DNA from: Raillietiella orientalis
Lineage: Eukaryota
Length of the DNA stretch: 64,000 bases
NCBI GenBank assembly: GCA_036172245.1
Contig: JAYWIR010000007.1
Location: 2,728,001 to 2,792,000 of the forward strand
Direction: 5' to 3'
Positions 3,101-55,349 of the stretch are shown here, in pieces. The translations under genes were made by a program, and so were the position numbers. How positions within the stretch are numbered: position 1 is the first letter of the stretch; each line of letters opens with the position of its first letter. The notes below the pieces were generated by a model. It did not search any database. It was not told the DNA's origin and worked only from the letters and a program-made list of their open reading frames with translations.

Positions 3101-4199
3101 CGACGATGGTGACGAGCGCTTGCGAGCAAAGCCCGCGGGAGGTGGAGGGAGGAACCAGGACACTTTCTTTTCAGAGTAGGCGTGGAGGGGGAAGAAGAGC
3201 AGCAGCAGCGTCTACTGCATAAGAAAAAGGAGAGAAGGGAGTGAATAAGACGGGAGTGAGAACGAGCGTAAGAAGAACTCCAGGCGCACGGAGTGGAGGG
3301 AGGGGGGAGGGGGAAGACGTAGAGGGCGCGCCCATCACTCGCTGCCGTCCTATCAAGAAGGCGTAGGCGGAGATCGACACTGAACTTACTAAGCGGAGAG
3401 ACCCCCCTGCCGGAGGGGATGCGTAAAGTAGCGGGAGGGGAAGTTAGTGTTAGATCTCCACGAGCCTCCCTCCTCCATGCCACCGCCCTCTCGCCCCCCT
3501 CTCGCCTTGCTAGCCGCCTCCTCAGCCGCTTTTTCGGTTCTCGGCGGGAGGCAAGTCCAGGAGGAACCCGTCGCAAGAGGAAAGGAGGGAGGTGGGGAAT
3601 CCGGAAGCCCCGTCCGCCCGCTGCGGCCCCGCCATAAACAAATGAAAAACTTGTTCTCCCGCTGGCTGCTTCCACAAGGGAAGCGAGAAGGAGAGGAAAC
3701 GGGGGGACTCTTTCTGGGAAAGAGCGTCGGGCGGAGGTGGTGCCGACACCTAGAAGGCGTGTGCGGGCGAGAGAGGATGAGGGGGGAGGGGGGAAGGAAG
3801 GAGTCGACAGAGAAGGCTCAGGGCGCGAAATTTTTTTTCAGTCTTATTTTTTTTTTTTTAAATTTTTCTACGTCTTCTTCCCTTTTATGGTCCGCATTCC
3901 GCGCAGCTTCCCAGGCGGAGAGGAGTGGCGACGGCAGAGGTCCGAGGGTCGTGCTGCTCCACCCTCTGGCCGGTCCCCCTTCCCAGAAGAGCTCTCTGCC
4001 GCCGCCGCCCCCGCCTCCACGCGCCCGCCGTCGGGGCCGGTGGCGGCGGAGCGCGCACGCGCCCCTCCCGGAAGGCAGGAGGAGGAACGGAGGCCACGCC
4101 CCGGCGCTCAGCCTCCTCAGGAGGCAAGGAGCTCTGGCCGGACGCTCCCAGCGGCTTTTATGAAGGCGCAAAGAGCGGCAGTAAAGCAATCCAGGCAGG

Positions 4200-25300: not shown

Positions 25301-27584
25301 GTTTTTGGAACAATGGAGCTGCTTTAGAAAAATCATATTTCCTGAGTTTTGACAAGCACACAATCCGCCATCCTTGAGAGTGCAACAGCATGATAAATTT
25401 GTCCGAGCGTGCCCACCGAAAAAAAGTCATTCATTCTTTTCCGGAACATCCGTGAGACTGAAAGCAACTGCTCCCCCGCAGGATCCTCTTGTACGTCCAT
25501 CCGCAGGAACAATTAACACCTCTCTCGGGAGGAAGGCAAGAGAAGAAGCCCCCTACCCTCCCCCCCTCACCCAAAAAAAAAAAAAAAAAAAATTCCGCTG
25601 TTTCCAGAAATGTGTCCTGCGATCCGAAGATAATTTATCGCGCGCTGGGAGGAAACAGACAACCAATGATCTATGAAGCATTGCAAGGGGAACGCATATT
25701 TCCTTCCTAACCGTTTTCGTCTTTCAGTTTATACAATTCTTGACTATCGCTGACAAATGAAGAACTCCTCCATCATCTTCCGGACGCGCAGGCATCGGTG
25801 TGCTGTTGTTCCACGCCCCGCACCTGAGCTGCCTTCCCGTGGAGACACCACCCATCTACGAGCGAGCTCTTTCCCGCCTCGCACATCTCGGAGGGGAGCA
25901 TCTGCGAGCAAGAGCTGTTCCGCAGGGGAGGAAGGCTAAACTTGCTGCTGCCTCCTCCCGACCTGGGTCAGGAGCGTTGCCGTGGGCTCGCGGGTCTCCT
26001 CTTCGCGCGGCCTCCGAGAAGTCACTTCCATCGAACAATCGGGAAATGCATTCATTTTTTTTTTTTTTTTTTCTTTTCCATTTTCATTTATTTATTTATT
26101 TATTTATTTTTTTTTGTTTCGGATTTCGGATGCCTGATATTTGATCTTATCACGTACCGCCCGTGACCCGAAGTGGAAGAATCCCGTCTTGGCATAAATC
26201 TTCGGTGGGCCAGCTGCTGAAAGTGGTCAGACGTCGACAATGCCCGGGCTGTTGCGAAACTGTAATCTCTGTACGTGTGAGGTGAGAAATGCGCCCACCC
26301 CTACTAACATCAGGTAGTAAAAATGTTTTCATGAGTATATAATTATCCTCCCATCAGCTACGTGTACTGGGGTGGTACCGGTGACTCGCAAATAAAAATA
26401 ACATATCATGATCTCTAATTTCTCTGGACTGTTGCGAAAAACAATGGGTGGAAAATCAAAACCATTCGTTTTCTCCAGAACAGGAAGAAGAAGGTTAGGT
26501 TTTAATGAAGGGAGAAGAACGATAAATTTCTGGACATGCCTTTTCCCGAAGAACATTCATGTCGCTGGAAACAGATGCCGCTCGTGACCGACATTTCTTA
26601 ATGCAGCGGGTTGCGCCGACCAAGACTGATGATTTTATCGAGCTGTGTGGTCATTGGCGCGAAACGACATGTACGTGTTACGTCACTAAAAGTGTAATTA
26701 TTTCGGTTAATGTGTTTTTGTTTTCAGCAGTGCCCACCAAATTCGGCCTGCAGTATGAATGCTCTCCTGGCGAGAGCTTCCATCTCTGGAAAAGGTTTGG
26801 TTCTCGTTCCTTCCTTTCAATTAGCAGGAAATTGTTTCCGAGATTTATCTTAGGAACAGTATTGCCAGGTTTCCCTGAAATGAAAAATCGAAATTGTAAG
26901 CAGCTGGAAGATTACGTTTGCCAGTAACATTAGCGAGCTCGGCCAATCGTCGAGCGCGAAAACAACGATAAACACTAATGCTTCTCGAAAAGTTTGTTCC
27001 GTTACTCATTGGTATCACAAACTGTTACGGAACCCATTCTTCTTCAGCTGGCGCGGAAGAGTCAGAAGTGCTTGGATTCAATGGAAACGGAAACTTTGCC
27101 CGCTCGGGTTCCTCCTCCTGGCCCGGACGCTCTAAAGAGGCGCGCAGGGAGACTCTTCAGGAGATGCTGAAGTGTCTGTCAGGAAACACTCCGGCATCGA
27201 TTCTCCTGACGAAAGTCGCTTTTCTTCTTCTTCTTCTTCTTCTTCTTCTTCTTCTCTCCCGCTCTCTCCCCTCCACGTCATCTAATGGAAAAATGCTCGG
27301 TCGAAATGGGACTTCGATAACAGGATCAATTTTATCAACGTGATTTTGCGGACGGGAAAAAAAGAAAAAAGATTGAATCCGCTGAATAAATATTCTTGCT
27401 TGGAAGCTCCGTTGCTCTCAGGAGCACCTTCTACGAGTTCTGGATTCCTCAGGGCTTTCATCATTTGCATGATAAAAAAAAAAAAAAAAAAAGAAAACTG
27501 CGCAGGAGCTCGCGCTTCTTTTGGAAAAATTTTCGTTACTGTTCTCCCTGCGCGTGGACCTCTTTGTTCCACGAAAACACGAAT

Positions 27585-27627
27585 TTCTTCTTCTTCTTCT
27601 TCGTCGTCGTCGTCGTCGTCTTCTTCC

Positions 27628-27672
<45 letters not shown>
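27585..27672. repeat. Compound microsatellite (TTC)n(GTC)n followed by an A42 tract
   Basis: Direct reading; a second (TTC)n lies at ~27222-27253. Confidence 0.95.
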
Positions 27673-27675
<3 letters not shown>

Positions 27676-29352
27676 TTCGGAGTTGAAACAAGTAATCTCA
27701 TTTTCCATCCTTCCCCAAATATACCACTCGAGATCGAGAGCATCTAACAAAATGGATTTCTTATATCCCCTTAAATTAATGTTTTCTTTAAGAAAGTTTG
27801 CATCGAAATGTGTCTTGAATATAGAGTTATAAATCCATTGAAATTGTTATTTATGGAACATCAAAGTCTGTAGAAATCGATTCGACAGTTGGCTGCAAGC
27901 CCTCTTTACAAAAATTACCCAGAGCGGTGGACAGCGTTCCGCTAACATATTTCTTGCACAACCACTTATTTAAAACTGGTCGGATTGGAGTTCTCATTAC
28001 TATAAACCATTTTCGTACCTTGGGAAATCGTTGGCTCATCACGAGCAAATTGCATCTGATGTCGAAATTGAAATGTTAATATTCCGCCCATTCATTTCTT
28101 GGGTTATACAATCCAGTCTATCCTTAAATTGCATGCAACTTAGTTCGTAAGAAACGAGTTGTTTAATGACTCCAGCAGAGAAATCCAAATGATTGCCAAA
28201 TGAGATGAAACATATGGAAATGAGCGGAAGGTTTCACTATTGCCATCTATGAACACGGCGGAGGAATTCAGGCGGTGGACGCGCGAGGTTCCCCGTTTTC
28301 ACCCCACCCCACCCACCCCCGGGATCCAGCCGATCGCGCAGGAGAGCCAACCCAGAAGTGCACGGGACGGCATGAGATCCTTAGGGGAAAGGGGGAGGGG
28401 GGGGGAGAGAGAGAGAGAGAAAAAGAAGAGAAAGAGGAAAAACGGCAGCGTTTTCTGCACTTTCGTCGCTTCCTCTCGGATCCGAGGCTCCACGACCTGG
28501 CGGAGGGTCTCCATCAGACGCACGCATGGCAACGGTCACACATGCGTATTTTCGCTCGGAGGCGAGGAGGAGGGAAAGTTGCCAAAGTTGAGCGGCTGAC
28601 TTGTGCCACGCCTCGTTTCGAATCCCGTACAAAAGCGAAAATTCCCCGACTCGGGTGAAACAGAACAGGAATCGGCGGAATCCTTTTCGTTCCTTCTCGG
28701 TTAGCGGCTCCGCAACAAAAGTTGCCCTCTTTCCCCCCCCCCCCCCGGCTTTGGAAATCTTTCGAATCGGTACTGCAGGAAGAGTCGGTCTGACCCCAGA
28801 CGTGGGATGATTTGTCAAGCCGGATGGGTCCCGAGCCACGGATGAAACCGCTCGCTCCTTCCTCTTCATATCGGTGAGACAAGTCACAGAGTCGAAGCTA
28901 TTCCAAGTTGATTTCGTTTCTCTCTCAAATTACATCTCGCAAAGTAATTCAAGAACAAAAGGGTTATGTGATAACGTGTGTTCGTGTTCTCAGAACGTTC
29001 GTGATTCTAGTTTGCTTTCGGTACTTGCGTTTTCCAGCATCCGACAGGATGGCGTGAATAACGACAAAACGTAGAGGAATTCTAAAATGCTTTTTATCTA
29101 CATGGAGATTTATGAAGATTTTTTTGTAAGGAATGATGAATATTCATTCGAAAGAATGCCCTCGCAATGTTTTCCATGTATTTGCTCCAGCTGGAATGCA
29201 ATCATCTAAAATTGTAAATAATCCAACAGAGAAATTTCCCCAAAGTAAAAGAATTCAAATGGGAAAGCTGGCAGTGCTGATCTCTTAGAAGGTCAACACA
29301 AACATTGCAATATCGGTAGAGGTCGTTTCTTTGAAGCATTAGAGGCTTGCTA

Positions 29353-29384
<32 letters not shown>

Positions 29385-29499
29385 AAAAACATTGCGTTGC
29401 ATTCGTGCCATCGAGATCTACGGCATCCATGATCGCGTTGCAGTGGACATCACTCTTTCCAAAAGAAGGGGGGAACCTTGCGCTTCGCCATTAGAGACT

Positions 29500-33950: not shown

Positions 33951-34536
33951 AAGGATGAGGGGAAAGGGAGGGATCGGTCTCAACGGACGATGGACGGAGC
34001 AGCAGCGCTGCCCGGCCTGAAGATGGCTTCCGGAGATTCCACTCCTTCGCCTCTTCTCTGCCATGCTTTCCTTTTTCCGTGTTCGCTCTTCCCTCTCCAG
34101 ATGACTCCATTCCTTCCCGACAAAACGTCTTTTCCTTTCTCCGGAAGTTCCCTTGGGAGGCGAGGAACGAAAATGTCCCTTCTCTCTCTCATCTTCCGCC
34201 CTGCTCCTCGAGGGGAAGAGATGGGAGCAAGATGAGGATTTACAGACTGCTGCAGCAAGCAAGGTCAGGGAGGAGCAGGAGGGAGGGGTAGGACTCTTGC
34301 CGTCTTCGCCTAGAAGTGACTTCGGCCATTTTGTTTTTCCTGTCTTGGGAAACGGACGGTGGCGGCCCGGGAGGAGAAGGAAAGGAAGGAGAGAGGGCAC
34401 TCCTCTTACCCTTTTCGGTCAGGAGCACGACAAGAGAATTCCTGGCTGTCGCCGTCGTCTCGGCAACCGAGCCTCCGTTGCTTCCTTCACAAAGAGACGG
34501 TTTCGCACAGTGCATTCTGTGAATCAACTCAGAGAG

Positions 34537-34602
34537 CGAATAAACAATTCCGCCTAAAGAAATAATTGCAACTTCAGTTGTACCGCCTCCTATATCAACA
34601 AC
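34537..34602 (-). pseudogene. mreB: 66-nt fragment of bacterial rod-shape actin MreB (phosphate-2 motif)
   Basis: Translates to VVDIGGGTTEVAIISLGGIVYS, the MreB signature. A/T-ending codons contrast with GC-rich flanks, which lack MreB similarity. Confidence 0.85.
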
Positions 34603-37600
34603 CTCTTCCCTCAGCGCAGCCTCGCATCCAGGACGGCTCTGATCAGTCTTCGGCTGTGGAAGACTCAGTGCTGAAGAGCTGCTGTTGCAGAGCAGAGTCA
34701 CTGGGAAGGTGACATAGTGTGGACCTCGAGTAGCCTCTGCTATCTCCTTCTGTGTCCTCTCCCTGGAGAGCTCGGAGACTGAAGAACGGATTCGAGAGGA
34801 TGTGTGTGTGCTCTCTCAGATCGGAGACCGACGCCTCACTTCCGTCGGAAATTGCGTCCTGTAGTGGCCGCATCTCTCTCTGAAAACTTCGAGTCAGGCA
34901 GGAGACCACGCCTCCCGCGGTCTTCCCTCTCCACCACCCTGGATGCATCGGAGTCAGCTCCTGACGAGCTTGCTTCCACGCCTCGTTCCCTATCTCTGCC
35001 TTCCTGTCCACAGAGCTTCAGATCCGATGGCGTTCCCTAGGAAATTGAGTGCTCATCAAAGCGGAATCCTGGCGACGTCTGGAGTGCCGAGGGGTAGCAC
35101 GGAGGTACAGCAAGCAGGCAGGAGGAACCTCCTGCTGCTGCTCTCAAAGAAGAGAGTCCTCGTTCCCTTCCTGCATTCCTTCTCCTAATCGCTTCCGCTC
35201 TTCGAGGCAGCTTCAGCATGTTTTTCCCTGCAGCACCTTCGGGACGCCTTGCGCGACACATGTGCCGTTGCTGAGTAGGATGCTGCGCGCCATTCTTCTC
35301 CTCCTCTTCCCTCCATCCCTTGTTTCCTTCTCTTTCCAGCTCCAGTCGCTCCGATTCTGCCGTCTTACTTTCGCTCCTGTTAACCCTTGCGCTTTCTTTT
35401 TCCGCCTCCAGGGTCGTCTCCCTCCTTCCGCCAGCAGCTCCACCAGCTCGATCTCCTCCGCAATCTCCCTTTCTGCAGCCTCCATCATCACTTCTGCTTC
35501 CACCAGAGGTCCAGACAGGCCTCCAAGAAACTTCTCCCCAGATCAGCTTAAAAAAAGCACGAAAGAAGGAGAGAACCTCTGGGTCTTCGCCCGATTAGTC
35601 TTCAGTGACCTAGGCGAGTGGTGCTGCATGTAAGCTTCCTGGGTCAGCCACGCACCTCGCGCAGGGCCAGGTGACTCCCGCGAGCCGCGTGAGTCTCCGC
35701 CGGCGAAGAGCATCCTAGCCACGGGCGAAAGCTTCCAACTCCACGAAGGCTGAAGGTCACCGGGGGCGAAGAATTCTCGCCTCCCTTCACCTTCTTTGCC
35801 GACCCTGTCGCATCTTTTCCTCCTCCCGCAGCCCGGCCCACCCATGGCTAGCTCACCCTTCCTCCTCCTCATCATCACCGTCATCGCCATCTTTGCCATC
35901 ATCAGCGTCGTTTTCATCCTCACGGACATCAAGCTCCATTCCATCAGAAAAGCTGACTCCCCCTGCCCCGACCACCCTATCCGGGGACACGCCTCCGCGC
36001 GCACGCGTCTTTTCGCCCCTCTTGCTACTAGGGAAAAGCATCTACCTCCCTCTTTTCTTCCCCATCCAGGGGAAGGAGAGCACATCGAGTGACAGGGATG
36101 CGCGACGTGCGCCGCGCCTCGACGTCAAGTCAGCATCCCATCTTCGCCCCCTCCTCAGAAAAGTTGCTCTCTCCCCTCCTCCCCAGCCCTCCCTCCCAGC
36201 AGAGCCCCGGCCTCCACGAAGGCCTGCTAAGGGGAAGAGGAGGGGGGGAGAGAGAAGAGGAGGAGGAAGAGAAGGGAGGGATGCTTTGAGGCCGAAGCGC
36301 GCGCCCTCCTCCGACGTCCTGCGGAAGACGGATGCGCGCGCCCGTTCTCGTGGTCCCGCCTCTCGCGCGCCTAGCCGCCGCCCCTAATTACAGGGCAGGG
36401 GCCCGCGGTGAGCCCCTCGTCGTGATGGAAGCCTCTCGAGGGTCCGCTTTCGAGAGGAGGCGCCCCTGGCGGTCCGCGCGTGATGCTATCTGACCATTTC
36501 TCACGCCTCGCTCGCCCCGGGGAACTCCGGTTTCGTGACGTCCGGGAAACCCCTCGTCTCATTCGCCCGCTCCCCCCCCCGCCGTATTCTCCTGCTCCCT
36601 TCCTGTCATTCCCTTCTCTTCCTCCCTTCCCCCTCCCCTCCACTCCTCCTCCCGGCGGACTGGAACAGCATAATTCCCTCTCCCCACGGGCGCGAAGCGA
36701 CTGTGGACTCCGAGATCTTGCGTACAAACCATTAGTGGAAGATGTGCAGCCACTCCCCCGCCGGCACCCTCTTCCCGAGACAGAAAAATCTCCATCTTCT
36801 TCCCCATGGATCTCGGGTCGCCATTCTCTGTCTCTTTCCCTTCTTACCTCCTTCTTCCCCTTCCCCCCCCTCGTCTCGTCTAATCTATGCCTATCTCTTT
36901 TCTCTCCTCTCGAACTGTTTGCCAAGGAGGGACGGCTTGCCCATCCATTCGATGGCGGGTGCACCCCGCTTCCTCCTGGGAGCGGAACGCTCGATTGCGT
37001 GTCCCCTCGAAACACAGAGCTTGCCCCCCTCTCTCCTTCCTGCACCCCTCTGGATTATCCAGAGGGCACTCTAGGAAGAAGACATTAATGAAAGTAGGGA
37101 AAATAGAATGAGATGAAAGACCTACCACGCTCATCCAGGAAGCTCTCTTATGGCCTCCTTCCCTCCCTTCCCCCCGAGAGACTCCGACGAAAGTCACCGG
37201 GACAGCCTCAGGCCTCTGCTCATGTGGGCGGGAGTAGTTGGTGCTGCTCTTGCTTAACTCCTTCTTCAGCTCTTCTTCCCTGAGGGTGTCGTCTCCATCG
37301 TATCGCGGGCTGCTCCCTGGGCCTCTTTGTCCGTCTCCTTCGAGCCGGAGAAGGAAGGGAGGAGAGAAAGTCGGAGCTCGGCCACTGACCTCTCCGTGTC
37401 GCTCCCTTCCTCCGTGAAGCAAACACGGCTTCTATCTCAACCCCATATACGGAAGCAGATTCCTGGATCAATTTTTCTAGCTATTCAGGATGGCGTCATT
37501 GCCAGGAGAAGCGGATGAAAGAGAAGGGAGGGTGGGAAGTAGGTTTCGTGGCAACGACTGCACAAATGTGGCATCTCTGAGAGCGAAGGAAGTCTTCCGG

Positions 37601-39399: not shown

Positions 39400-40330
39400 T
39401 CTTCCGTTAGGATTCATGAATTCCAACCAATATGATGGGCAGCTCACATATTTGGGAGTTTGTCCAACTAGGAACAAGCAATACTTACTCCAGGGAAGGA
39501 AGAAGGGAATTCTACAGGGACTTAGGATCGACTGGACCACACTCAAAGGCTTAGGAGATGTTCTTACGGAACCCTTCTCCATATCCAAGGTCGCACTGGT
39601 ACATTTTCCATTGCCACCACCATCCGTGCCGAAGGCGGTTCCAGGCGAACTCATACCCAAACCCTTCCGCTTTCTCCGTCGCCAACTCCCTCTTGCTGGC
39701 CGGAACCCAGGGAACTGACATTTTCCGACGCCGGAACGCCGGGAGGAAGGAGCGACCCTGTCCCAGGGTTTAAATGCATCTCCAAATCCGCTCCACTTCG
39801 CAAGAGAGTCGTTCGAGAGTCTCCTAAGAGGATTACGACCCCTGTATTTGCCTCCGCATTACTACCGACAGCAACCACAGCACACCTTCCGTGGGATCCG
39901 ACGAGCGCCGTAAGCCGATGCTCAGCTTACCCCAGTTGCAGAGCCAGCTCCACCTACCAACACTGGCTCAATAGGGGTGCCCCTGCATCCCACCGACCGA
40001 ACTTCAGCGTTCGGGAAAAGTTCGGAAACCGAAGAAGGGTTGAGACTCACCGATTCGGAGTTTGAGAATAGGTTGAGCTCACTTGGACCCCAAGGGCGTA
40101 GCCATTCGCTTTACTGATGAGACTCCGTTTTCCTTCCTCTTGGACCAGAATTCAACTATATTAAGGGAAACTTAGGAGTGAAGAAGCCACTAGATGGTTC
40201 GATAAGTCTTTTCCCCCTCCATCAGCTGTTATGACGAATTTGTGCGTTGGGATCACTGAAACCTTTCGTTAGGATTTCTTCTGGTCTCTCCTCTTGGCTA
40301 GGCGTAGCGCATCATCTTTCGCTTGTTTTC
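39400..40330 (-). pseudogene. Heavily diverged 28S (LSU) rRNA pseudogene fragment
   Basis: Collinear antisense matches to conserved eukaryotic 28S blocks: cttaggatcgactg (39521), ggaacccttctcca (39568), gagtttgagaataggttgag (40058), cattcgctttac (40103), agggaaactt.ggag (40164), ctagatggttcgat.agtcttt (40190), atcatctttcg (40311). Many substitutions between the blocks; may extend weakly to ~39170. Confidence 0.85.
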
Positions 40331-40799
40331 TCAAATTTGCGAAGGATGACCTCTTCCTGCTCGAATGCATCATCGAATCATTTGTAGCCTTTCCAGGCGG
40401 CCATTTTTATCGTTGCACCTCTTAAGTCAGCCATCTTTCCTTGAGAACCTCAGGAGGGAGAGCGCACTTGCTGAGCGGTGCTTAAGGGTGGAGATGCAGA
40501 AAAGACATGCAGCAGGCAGACACTGCAAAGATAGTACCCCTGGGATCGTCTCTTCATGCCCATGGCATTTCATGTGAAAGTACCGTGAAGCGAAATCGGT
40601 AGAATGATGCAGAAGAAAAAAAATGTTCAAAGCTCGACTTGTTTCTTGGTTCCTCTGCCCGAGCTTTGAAGCACACACTTTTCTGGCGGGATGCCGCTTT
40701 TAACACTTATGCCCACAACGGGTGCTTGAACTGGGCTCACTCTTTTTCTTGTCTTCATGCTCTCAAATCATTCTCAAAAAGTGCCTGTCGCTCCTTACC

Positions 40800-51083: not shown

Positions 51084-51832
51084 ACAGGTTTGGGCAGAGG
51101 GGAATGATACAACGAAAATAAACCACATTTTGAAATTTCACGTCTGAAGCAGATAATGCGGCATGAAAATTTCAAAGATACAAAAAGAAAAAAAAGCCAT
51201 GGCTCGCAAAGAAAAAGAAAGAAAGAGAAGTTGCGACTGGAGCACTGCTTTGAGGTCAATCAAAAACGTGCAATTTATGCAGAAACGCTTGGCAAGTAAT
51301 TTCGGACTGAACGATCTGAGCCATCCATCTGAATGGAACGAAGAGGACTGCGTCCATGACCGTCCCACATTCAGCTGAACAAGAAACACGCGATTGGAAT
51401 TTAAGTCACACAGATCAACATAAATGCAAATTTCAGTTGAAAATTGTAAATACGGGACGGAGAGGAGACACGCAGATTGATGTCACACTTACAATGAGAC
51501 AAGTTTACGGACGCAGTTAAAAAAGCATTCAAAGTATGAAAACCAAGTAGCAATTGCATGTGAACAGTGGAGAACGAGGGGAAAATTATCATTGCTAAAA
51601 TGAAAAAAAGTGACGACGAATGCATCTCCAAACCACAACGCAGCATGGATCGATAATAATAATAATAGCTTTTGTCCATCGATAAACCTTGCTTATATCA
51701 TAGTAAACTTCGTGGCTAAGTTGCAGTAAACACTTGTTTACAATTTCTACGAAGAAGGCAGAGAGGTTTTCATTAAGTGACAAACACATTTCGAGTAGCT
51801 CGAGTGAATACACAAAGAAGCGTTCGAAGGCT

Positions 51833-53800: not shown

Positions 53801-55349
53801 ATGATGGCAAGCTATTTACCAGAAACTGATTCTGAAGATGAGTTACCATCAGGTTGGCAGGAAAAAATTGCGAAGAGTGGTTGCGTTTATTATCATAAGT
53901 ATGAGGTTGCATGTACCAGTAAATTGTATATCATGTATTTATAGTCCACATACACAAGTTAGTCAGTGGATACATCCTAGAACTGGAAGGAAAAAGCAGA
54001 TTCCAAAAGGTAAACATGCCTGTTCATTTGTTTTGTAATTGTTTTTGTTTTTCTTGATCCTATTCAGAACTCCCATTTGGTTGGGAAGAAAAAAAAACAG
54101 AAGATGGTACCGTTTTCATCAGTCAGCTAACCAAACAAGTTACACATCTGGATCCCAGAATGGCTTTTGCCATAGAAGAGAAAGGGGAAGGTCCCAGGCA
54201 AATTTTTGATGCATCCTCCACAGCACTACAAGTTCTGCACGGAATAGATCTCAGGGGCAAGGTGGCAGTAATTACAGGAGGCAATGCAGGAATTGGTAGA
54301 TACGAAATAATCGATGGAACATGTTTTCTGTAGGATTTGAAACTGCTAGAGCATTCGCACTTCATGGATGTCATGTAGTGTTAGCTTGTCGTGATGTATC
54401 CAGTGCTCAGAAAACAGTTGAGCGGATTTCTGAAGAACATTCACAGAGTCTCTTGCACTTTCTCAGACTTGACTTGGCATCGTTGCAGAGTGTGAGGCAG
54501 TGCTGTCAGTCTTTGCATCAACAGTATGAGTGAGTCATGCACCTGAGTTTAAACATTGCTGTGCTAAGAGCATTGCATATATTGGTGTTGAATGCTGGAG
54601 TGTTCGCACATCCTTATTCTTTAACTCAAGATGGTTTGGAATATACATTCCAAGTTAATCACTTAGCTCATTTCTACATGACAATCTTGTTGCATTCTTT
54701 GTTGGTACGGGGTGCTGCACGCATTGTCATTGTCTCTTCTGAATCCCATCGGTAGGTTTTTGTTGGATTTAAAAGGCAACTTCTGGATGTTTAGCTTTTC
54801 TATGTTGACAGCTGATAATCTGGAACAGTTGCCACAGCCTCCTATGCAATTTTTCTTTCCAATGTTAGCATATAACAACTCTAAGCTGTGCAACATTTTG
54901 TTCATGCAGCAACTTCGGCAGCAATCCGAGTGGAATAGAGTGAGCTGTTTTGCTGTGCATCCTGGAAATTTAGTAAATTCTGGATTGTCTCGTCATTGGT
55001 GGGCTTATCGTTTACTTTTTTGGGTGGTTAGCCCATTCACCAAGACACTGGTAAGTAGTCAAGTAAAATTTCTTGCACAGATGCTGGGATCAGCGTTTGT
55101 GCTTTATGCTTGCCTTTGCATTTCAAAAAGTTTGTGTTGTTCATGTTGCTCTTGTTGTAGGAACAAGCAGCTAGTACAACTGTCTATTGTGCTACACTTG
55201 CAGACTCCTCATTCTTGTATTTCAATAATTGCTACCCATGCAAGCCATCTTCTGCTGCACTTGATGAGGAGCTGGGGAAGAAGCTTTGGGATTTATGCAT
55301 GGAATTGATAGAAGAAAAAATGGGTTCTTTATTAGTTGAATGCAATTAG
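53801..55349 (+). CDS. WWOX: WW domain-containing oxidoreductase; exons 53801-53898, 53945-54009, 54068-54295, 54334-54529, 54569-54751, 54795-55050, 55161-55349 (1215 nt, 404 aa)
   Basis: [12 protein letters not shown]...[10 protein letters not shown] (WW1), ELPFGWEE...LDPR (WW2), TGGNAGIG Rossmann motif, LNAG, VSSESHR, catalytic YNNSK, VHPGN, PFTK..QAA.TTVYCA. All six introns are GT-AG and preserve frame. The start could be 53804 or an upstream in-frame ATG (53777/53789). Confidence 0.97.

What the first reader, a model, noticed from the sequence alone, without database searches (positions are those of the whole stretch)
34537..34602. Intact 66-nt bacterial mreB fragment embedded in animal retroelement debris
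Seen: the minus strand encodes VVDIGGGTTEVAIISLGGIVYS with A/T-ending codons, abruptly bounded by GC-rich non-MreB sequence. Known: this is the MreB phosphate-2 signature, and animals have no mreB; the continuation EVAIISLGGIVYS differs from Hsp70/DnaK (DLGGGTFDVS). Inference: a recent micro-insertion from an AT-rich endosymbiont (Wolbachia/Rickettsiales-like), possibly captured as filler DNA during break repair or by RT template switching.
Basis: partly seen in the sequence, partly recalled or inferred. Interest (0 to 1): 0.7.

Follow-up and report, generated by a model that had tools for sequence, protein, structure and literature searches.

The report
Tiny Wolbachia mreB fragment in animal DNA
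A stretch of about 64-74 bases copied from the mreB gene of a Wolbachia bacterium sits inside GC-rich DNA of an invertebrate animal; such symbiont-to-host DNA transfers are well known, and this one is notable only for being so short.

Summary
Window 34537-34602 (minus strand) encodes VVDIGGGTTEVAIISLGGIVYS. It is 38% GC against 55-56% in the flanks, and it passes Pfam's MreB_Mbl threshold.

The donor can be named at the DNA level:
- Of 37 bacterial species genomes that encode this exact peptide, the 17 closest in nucleotides are all Wolbachia or Wolbachia-like Rickettsiales MAGs, best 64/66.
- 56 of 60 genomes of that genus match at 83-98%.
- Two of them share an unbroken 64-base run with the window, 34538-34601.

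Homology ends sharply on both sides. Nothing else in the 64 kb matches Wolbachia.

The host is an animal. An intact WWOX gene lies 19 kb away, and its best hits are arthropod WWOX at 50-57% identity.

No retroelement domain was found in any of the 197 ORFs of 110 aa or more.

The surrounding 191-aa ORF has no homologue apart from the MreB stretch.

Best reading: a recent, non-functional, very short nuclear Wolbachia transfer (NUWT), probably captured during break repair. The junctions could not be checked with reads, so an assembly or library artefact remains the main rival. This is a known kind of event and of modest interest.

The parts
34538..34601 (-). Core of the insert: a 64-nt run identical to the mreB gene of two Wolbachia-genus genomes (G007, G055). 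It encodes part of the MreB phosphate-2 region.
   Evidence: ungapped comparison with L048/L049; translation and Pfam MreB_Mbl.
34530..34603 (-). Largest block that BLASTN aligns to Wolbachia mreB: 74 nt, 95% identical to G001. The outer bases (34602-34603 and 34530-34537) may be insert or chance/microhomology. In 34530-34536, 5 of 7 bases match, but the second base of the Arg codon differs from all 17 Wolbachia-like sequences compared.
34604..34903 (.). Host flank on the mreB-upstream side. GC 0.560, no similarity to Wolbachia or to the sequence upstream in mreB. At most 1 nt (G) is shared at the junction.
34230..34529 (.). Host flank on the mreB-downstream side. GC 0.553, unrelated to the continuation of mreB. 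No target-site duplication and no repeat copy elsewhere in the window.
34240..34815 (-). 191-aa stop-to-stop frame that happens to run through the insert. It is not a conserved gene.
   Evidence: phmmer against 1.84 billion representatives gave 5 hits at E<=0.001. All 5 are bacterial MreB sequences; 4 align only around residues 70-100, and the fifth (P0047) aligns over query 72-139.
53801..55349 (+). Host marker gene 19 kb from the insert: an intact WW-domain oxidoreductase (WWOX; two WW domains plus an SDR domain) with introns of about 44-110 nt. It shows the contig is animal nuclear DNA.
   Evidence: Pfam WW, adh_short, adh_short_C2 on successive small ORFs; sequence and splice sites read by eye; 36 hits; the named ones are mostly arthropod WWOX at 41-59% identity.

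Best explanation
This is a very short nuclear Wolbachia transfer (NUWT). A piece of 64-74 bp from the mreB gene of a Wolbachia endosymbiont was inserted into non-coding, GC-rich nuclear DNA of its invertebrate (probably arthropod) host.

Shown:
- The bacterial origin and the donor genus.
- The sharp borders.
- The absence of further Wolbachia DNA in the 64 kb.
- The animal nature of the contig.
- The lack of any conserved host gene around the insert.

Inferred:
- DNA released from lysed symbionts in germline cells was captured as filler when a chromosomal double-strand break was rejoined by end-joining, as happens with short mitochondrial insertions (NUMTs). The junctions show at most 1 nt of microhomology and no target-site duplication.
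- The piece covers 24 of 327 MreB profile positions, so it cannot make an MreB protein and has no function.
- It is young. There is no amino-acid change in 22 codons, and the 64-nt run is identical to living Wolbachia. That puts a 95% upper bound of about 5% on divergence since transfer (my calculation: exp(-64d) >= 0.05).
For: -: the sequence, its translation and the Pfam MreB_Mbl hit above the curated cut-off.
- BLASTN against plasmid records hits annotated rod-shape (mreB) genes. The best non-Wolbachia match is Bacillus at 89.8% over 59 nt.
- a degenerate scan for the exact peptide in 185,579 species genomes found 37 loci. Ranked by nucleotide identity, the top 17 (58-64 of 66) are 14 records titled Wolbachia and 3 'Rickettsiales bacterium' MAGs. 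The next best is 57/66.
- a 74-nt block at 95% identity, E 3.4e-25.
- 56 of 60 genus genomes match at 83-98%.
- a 64-nt exact run with two of them.
- the flanks do not align to mreB.
- GC 0.38 in the insert against 0.55-0.56 in the flanks, so the flanks are not decayed Wolbachia DNA.
- no other window segment matches five Wolbachia genomes (best E is 0.005 and 0.02 or weaker).
- the window has no N.
- an animal WWOX gene lies on the same contig.
- the surrounding ORF has no homologue outside the MreB stretch.
- Literature: NUWTs are common in arthropods and nematodes (abstracts of PMC4299567 and PMC4046930 in the listing; passages of PMC3849323; sections 11 and 16 of PMC12693587).
Against: - No physical confirmation exists. 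No genome is held for the window, so neither the junctions nor the copy number could be checked.
- The exact 66-mer is absent from the species genomes and from 241 million metagenome records, so the donor strain itself was not found.
- The host species is unidentified. Its WWOX is only 41-59% identical to any hit, so a current or past Wolbachia infection is inferred, not shown.
- 64-74 nt is close to a short-read length, which leaves some room for a library or gap-filling artefact.
- The break-repair mechanism rests on analogy and on the lack of microhomology or a target-site duplication. No empty site was available for comparison.
Confidence: 0.75

Rival explanations
1. Assembly or library artefact. 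The host sample contained live Wolbachia, and a short Wolbachia-derived piece (a chimeric molecule, a mis-filled gap or a mis-corrected read) was built into a host contig. On this reading the insert does not exist in the animal's chromosomes.
For: The piece is nearly identical to living Wolbachia (64-nt exact run), as contamination would be. Its length is close to a short-read length. It occurs once in the window. No genome is held against which to check it.
Against: It is flanked by more than 29 kb of non-Wolbachia sequence on each side, with no N in the window. The junctions share at most 1 nt with mreB, so a mis-join driven by shared k-mers is unlikely. Chimeric clones or reads normally join long pieces, not 70 nt embedded on both sides. 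The five Wolbachia genomes match nothing else in the window.
Confidence: 0.15
2. Remnant of a larger, older Wolbachia insertion whose other parts have decayed beyond recognition.
For: Large NUWTs that later fragment are documented (abstracts of PMC4299567 and PMC4046930, listing).
Against: Neutral decay would not leave 64 nt perfect beside flanks with no similarity at all. The flanks are 55-56% GC, far from the 38% GC of the insert itself. No other hit at E<0.005 occurs in 64 kb.
Confidence: 0.03
3. Transfer from another AT-rich bacterium (Bacillus-like, other Rickettsiales, an enterobacterial symbiont) or a native eukaryotic actin-fold gene piece.
For: mreB is highly conserved. Bacillus sp. 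N5-665 reaches 89.8% over 59 nt and 'Ca. Stammera' 89.6% over 48 nt.
Against: Wolbachia reaches 64/66 and a 64-nt exact run. The Bacillus match fails at the last three codons (VTS in place of VYS). The best non-Wolbachia-like genome encoding the same peptide is 57/66. Pfam lists only MreB_Mbl.
Confidence: 0.03
4. The insert has been taken up into a host coding exon, lying in frame within the 191-aa ORF 34240-34815(-), and contributes a nucleotide-binding loop to a host protein.
For: The 22 codons are in frame with an open stretch of 191 aa.
Against: In this GC-rich DNA, ORFs of 100-220 aa overlap in all six frames. Pfam finds nothing in that ORF but the MreB stretch. phmmer against 1.84 billion representatives returns 5 hits, all of them bacterial MreB sequences.
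Confidence: 0.02

Closest known systems
Nuclear Wolbachia transfers (NUWTs) in arthropods and nematodes, e.g. Brugia malayi (PMC3849323), Drosophila ananassae (PMC4299567), Dictyocaulus viviparus (PMC4046930), 22 filarial species (PMC12693587)
   Same: Wolbachia DNA embedded in host nuclear sequence, non-functional, and near-identical to living strains when recent. The donor genus is established here by nucleotide identity.
   Different: This one is far shorter than what those screens report or could detect. The B. malayi study defined boundaries for nuwts >100 bp (passage seen). The 22-species screen required nhmmscan E<1e-30 (sections 11 and 16). This fragment scores E of about 1e-25 to 1e-28 against one genome. 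It is also isolated, with no neighbouring NUWT in 64 kb.
Short NUMT/NUPT insertions captured at double-strand breaks by end-joining (recalled from the literature; no paper was read for this here)
   Same: Size class of tens to hundreds of bp, sharp borders, little or no microhomology, no target-site duplication, and insertion into non-coding DNA.
   Different: The donor is an endosymbiont chromosome, not an organelle genome. The mechanism is inferred by analogy only.
MreB/Mbl actin-like rod-shape proteins (Pfam PF06723)
   Same: The 22 residues are the phosphate-2 nucleotide-binding segment and are identical to Wolbachia MreB.
   Different: Only 24 of 327 profile positions are present. There is no start, no remainder of the fold and no bacterial expression signals, so this is a gene fragment and not a family member in any functional sense.

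Membership tests
NUWT (nuclear Wolbachia transfer) | The sequence derives from Wolbachia, closer to Wolbachia than to any other source | tested here: met
   the top 17 of 37 loci are all Wolbachia or Wolbachia-like, best 64/66; 56 of 60 genus genomes match; 64-nt exact run. The best other donor is 57/66, or 89.8% over 59 nt.
NUWT (nuclear Wolbachia transfer) | Contiguous on both sides with host nuclear DNA in the assembled sequence | tested here: met
   no other Wolbachia match in 64 kb; no N in the window; an intron-bearing animal WWOX gene lies on the same contig; flank GC 0.55-0.56.
NUWT (nuclear Wolbachia transfer) | Junctions verified in the organism (spanning reads, PCR, or presence after symbiont depletion) | not testable with these tools
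   no genome is held; no sequencing run could be listed, so read laying was not usable.
NUWT (nuclear Wolbachia transfer) | The host is, or was, a Wolbachia carrier | tested here: inconclusive
   The host was not identified. One search shows only that its WWOX is nearest to arthropod WWOX (41-59% identity). Arthropods are the main Wolbachia hosts (abstract of PMC4046930).
MreB/Mbl gene (PF06723) | The full actin-like ATPase fold is encoded | tested here: not met
   the match covers profile positions 149-172 of 327; the flanks do not align to mreB.
   none of the 197 ORFs of >=110 aa hits such a family (thresholds 0.01, 0.01, 0.001); 0 of 131 ORFs of 50-109 aa overlapping 29-41 kb; the 2.2 kb around the insert has no other copy in the window. 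Strongly decayed elements, or elements without protein remnants, would escape this test.

The most novel reading that the evidence does not exclude
The insert is a true germline 'micro-NUWT' of under 100 bp. It would represent a class of endosymbiont-derived filler insertions that published NUWT screens cannot see, given length cut-offs above 100 bp or E<1e-30. Such pieces would record Wolbachia infection history and germline break repair at much finer grain than is now catalogued, possibly in a host lineage not yet known to carry Wolbachia.
Probability: 0.55. Interest if true: 0.4.

Novelty: new member of a known kind. Interest (0 to 1): 0.3.

Why it matters
If real, the fragment is a marker of a present or recent Wolbachia infection in this unidentified invertebrate. 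It also shows that symbiont DNA can enter host chromosomes in pieces as small as about 70 bp, below the thresholds of the usual NUWT screens. It changes nothing about what is known of lateral transfer from Wolbachia, has no plausible function, and cannot be told apart from an artefact without reads.

Tried and rejected
- Whole-genome search of the window's own assembly: none is held.
- Public runs for 34100-35050: none was listed, and no RNA holder was listed. Read laying was therefore never used.
- Exact 66-mer in species genomes and in metagenome contigs: 0 matches each.
- A 26-nt host flank in metagenome contigs, to look for an empty or filled allele elsewhere: 0 matches.
- Earlier findings of this scan: nothing for this genome or for this sequence. 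A word search returned only unrelated cases.
I used stop-free ORFs instead.
- ESM Atlas on the WWOX exon gave no useful taxon.
- tRNA scan: none found.
- Repeat and tandem-repeat scans around the insert: only purine-rich low-complexity matches, no target-site duplication.
- Pfam 'YxzE-like bacteriocin' (27421-27846, E 7e-6, below cut-off) looked like a possible second bacterial piece. It turned out to be a poly-F/poly-R low-complexity artefact of a poly(A) tract.
- The idea that the window is coccidian, my first impression from its composition, was dropped once the WWOX gene and its arthropod hits appeared.
- Host species: not identified.
- Supergroup of the donor: not attempted, because 74 nt carry too little signal.

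Full report
**1. The observation**

The minus strand of window 34537-34602 translates to VVDIGGGTTEVAIISLGGIVYS. Nineteen of the 22 codons end in A or T. The 66 nt are 37.9% GC, against 55.3% and 56.0% in the 300 nt on either side. The stop-to-stop frame that contains it (34240-34815, minus) hits Pfam MreB_Mbl at E 4.2e-7 and 29.6 bits, above the curated cut-off of 27. Residues 72-95 lie on profile positions 149-172 of 327, and no other family was listed. The 66-mer occurs once in the window and in none of 100 shuffles.

**2. Where the fragment comes from**

The exact 66-mer is absent from one genome each of 185,579 prokaryote species and from the metagenome collection. BLASTN against plasmid records (some of which are mislabelled chromosomes) hit annotated rod-shape/mreB genes. 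The best was Bacillus sp. N5-665 at 89.8% over 59 nt, and that match fails at the last three codons.

I then scanned the species genomes with a degenerate pattern that demands the same 22-residue peptide. This gave 37 loci. Ranked by nucleotide identity to the window, the top 17 (58-64 of 66) are 14 records titled Wolbachia and 3 'Rickettsiales bacterium' MAGs. The one MAG I aligned with its flanks (L032) aligns like Wolbachia. The next best locus scores 57/66, and the GC-rich alpha- and gammaproteobacteria score 46-52/66.

BLASTN of the 74-nt block against 60 genomes of the genus around one complete Wolbachia genome matched 56 of them at 83-98% identity. Two of these (G007 and G055, 1.3-1.4 Mb) share an unbroken 64-nt run with the window, 34538-34601. 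They differ only at the first base of the first codon (Ile instead of Val) and at the third base of the Ser codon. Every third-position state seen in the window also occurs in some Wolbachia sequence. The donor is therefore Wolbachia, and the fragment looks like a natural allele of a strain not among the representatives.

**3. Borders**

On the mreB-upstream side, similarity ends at or one base beyond the first Val codon (34602-34603). At most one G is shared with the bacterial ATG.

On the downstream side it ends after TATTCG-C. The next bases (CTCTCTG in the window, CGNTCTG in Wolbachia) match at 5 of 7 positions. However, the second base of the Arg codon, which is G in all 17 Wolbachia-like sequences, is T in the window.

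The insert is thus 64-74 nt long. There is no target-site duplication, and there is no copy of the flanks elsewhere in the window.

**4. Context**

BLASTN of the whole window in four pieces against five Wolbachia genomes found only this block. All other hits were at noise level (best E is 0.005 and 0.02 or weaker). The flanks are GC-rich, so they are not decayed Wolbachia DNA. This is an isolated micro-insertion, not the visible tip of a larger relic.

The window has no N. It is animal nuclear DNA:
- At about 53801-55349 (+) lies an intact WWOX gene. Pfam finds WW, adh_short and adh_short_C2 on successive small ORFs.
- Read by eye, the gene has GT-AG introns of about 44-110 nt.
- One 85-aa exon finds 36 proteins at E<=1e-10. 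The named ones are WWOX of beetles, ants, spiders, a horseshoe crab, krill and a snail, at 41-59% identity.

No close relative appeared, so the host species remains unknown. An arthropod is likely, but that is not shown.

'Retroelement debris' was not found. None of the 197 ORFs of 110 aa or more hits a retroelement family, and none of the 131 ORFs of 50-109 aa overlapping 29-41 kb does either. Very decayed or non-coding elements would escape this test.

**5. Is it part of a gene?**

The 22 codons lie in frame in a 191-aa open stretch, but in this GC-rich DNA similar open stretches overlap in all six frames. phmmer of the 191 aa against 1.84 billion representatives gave 5 hits at E<=0.001. All five are bacterial MreB sequences, and four of them align only around residues 70-100. 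There is no sign of a host protein here, so the fragment is best read as inert.

**6. Mechanism**

The Wolbachia origin, the sharp borders, the isolation and the non-coding animal context are shown. The rest is inferred: capture of a small piece of symbiont DNA during end-joining repair of a germline double-strand break, as with short NUMTs (recalled knowledge, no paper read here). The near-absence of junction microhomology and the lack of a duplication fit that picture.

On age: there is no amino-acid change in 22 codons, and the 64-nt run is identical to living strains. That gives a 95% upper bound of about 5% divergence (my calculation), so the event is recent.

**7. The main rival**

The main rival is an assembly or library artefact in a sample that contained live Wolbachia. 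Several points count against it:
- More than 29 kb of host sequence lies on each side, without gaps.
- The junctions share no k-mer with mreB.
- Artefactual chimeras rarely embed 70 nt on both sides.

What keeps it open is the lack of reads, the near-identity to living Wolbachia, and a size near a short-read length. I put it at about 0.15.

**8. Comparison with what is known**

Transfers of Wolbachia DNA to host nuclei are common. [quoted passage not shown]

Published screens work above this size. The Brugia malayi study defined nuwt boundaries for pieces >100 bp (passage). The 22-species filarial screen required E<1e-30 (sections 11 and 16 of PMC12693587). This fragment, at E of about 1e-25 to 1e-28 per genome, would be missed.

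It is therefore a new, unusually small member of a known kind. I did not search the literature specifically for NUWTs under 100 bp, so I make no claim that none is in print. I did not look at the supplementary tables of those papers, and they may list short pieces.

**9. Verdict**

Its retroelement context is not supported, and the physical reality of the junctions and the mechanism are untested. Interest is modest at 0.3.

Noticed in passing
window 53801-55349 (+): Compact, apparently intact WWOX gene (two WW domains plus a short-chain dehydrogenase domain) with very short introns of about 44-110 nt. Its best hits are arthropod WWOX at only 41-59% identity, so the host belongs to a poorly sampled or fast-evolving lineage.
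   Followed up: partly
window 39622-40337 (-): Degenerate fragment resembling eukaryotic 28S rRNA (Rfam LSU_rRNA_eukarya, 62.2 bits against a gathering score of 50, model positions 672-1449 of 3401). It stands alone about 5 kb from the insert and is probably an rDNA pseudogene piece.
   Followed up: partly
whole window, 1-kb bins: Strong GC heterogeneity, from 31% to 65% GC. The one recognisable gene (WWOX) lies in the AT-rich part (47-57 kb). The GC-rich parts (1-15, 33-37 and 58-64 kb) carry overlapping open frames in all six frames with no Pfam family.
   Followed up: partly
window 27632-27672, 26056-26115, 29334-29393, 3828-3887: Long poly(A)/poly(T) and (TTTA)n tracts set abruptly in GC-rich DNA. 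One of them produces a spurious sub-threshold Pfam hit (YxzE-like bacteriocin, E 7e-6) through poly-F/poly-R translation.
   Followed up: yes
window 51157-51375 (+): Weak, sub-threshold similarity to ribosomal protein L6e (E 0.0043, 17.9 bits against a cut-off of 21.4). It could be an exon or pseudogene piece upstream of WWOX.
   Followed up: no
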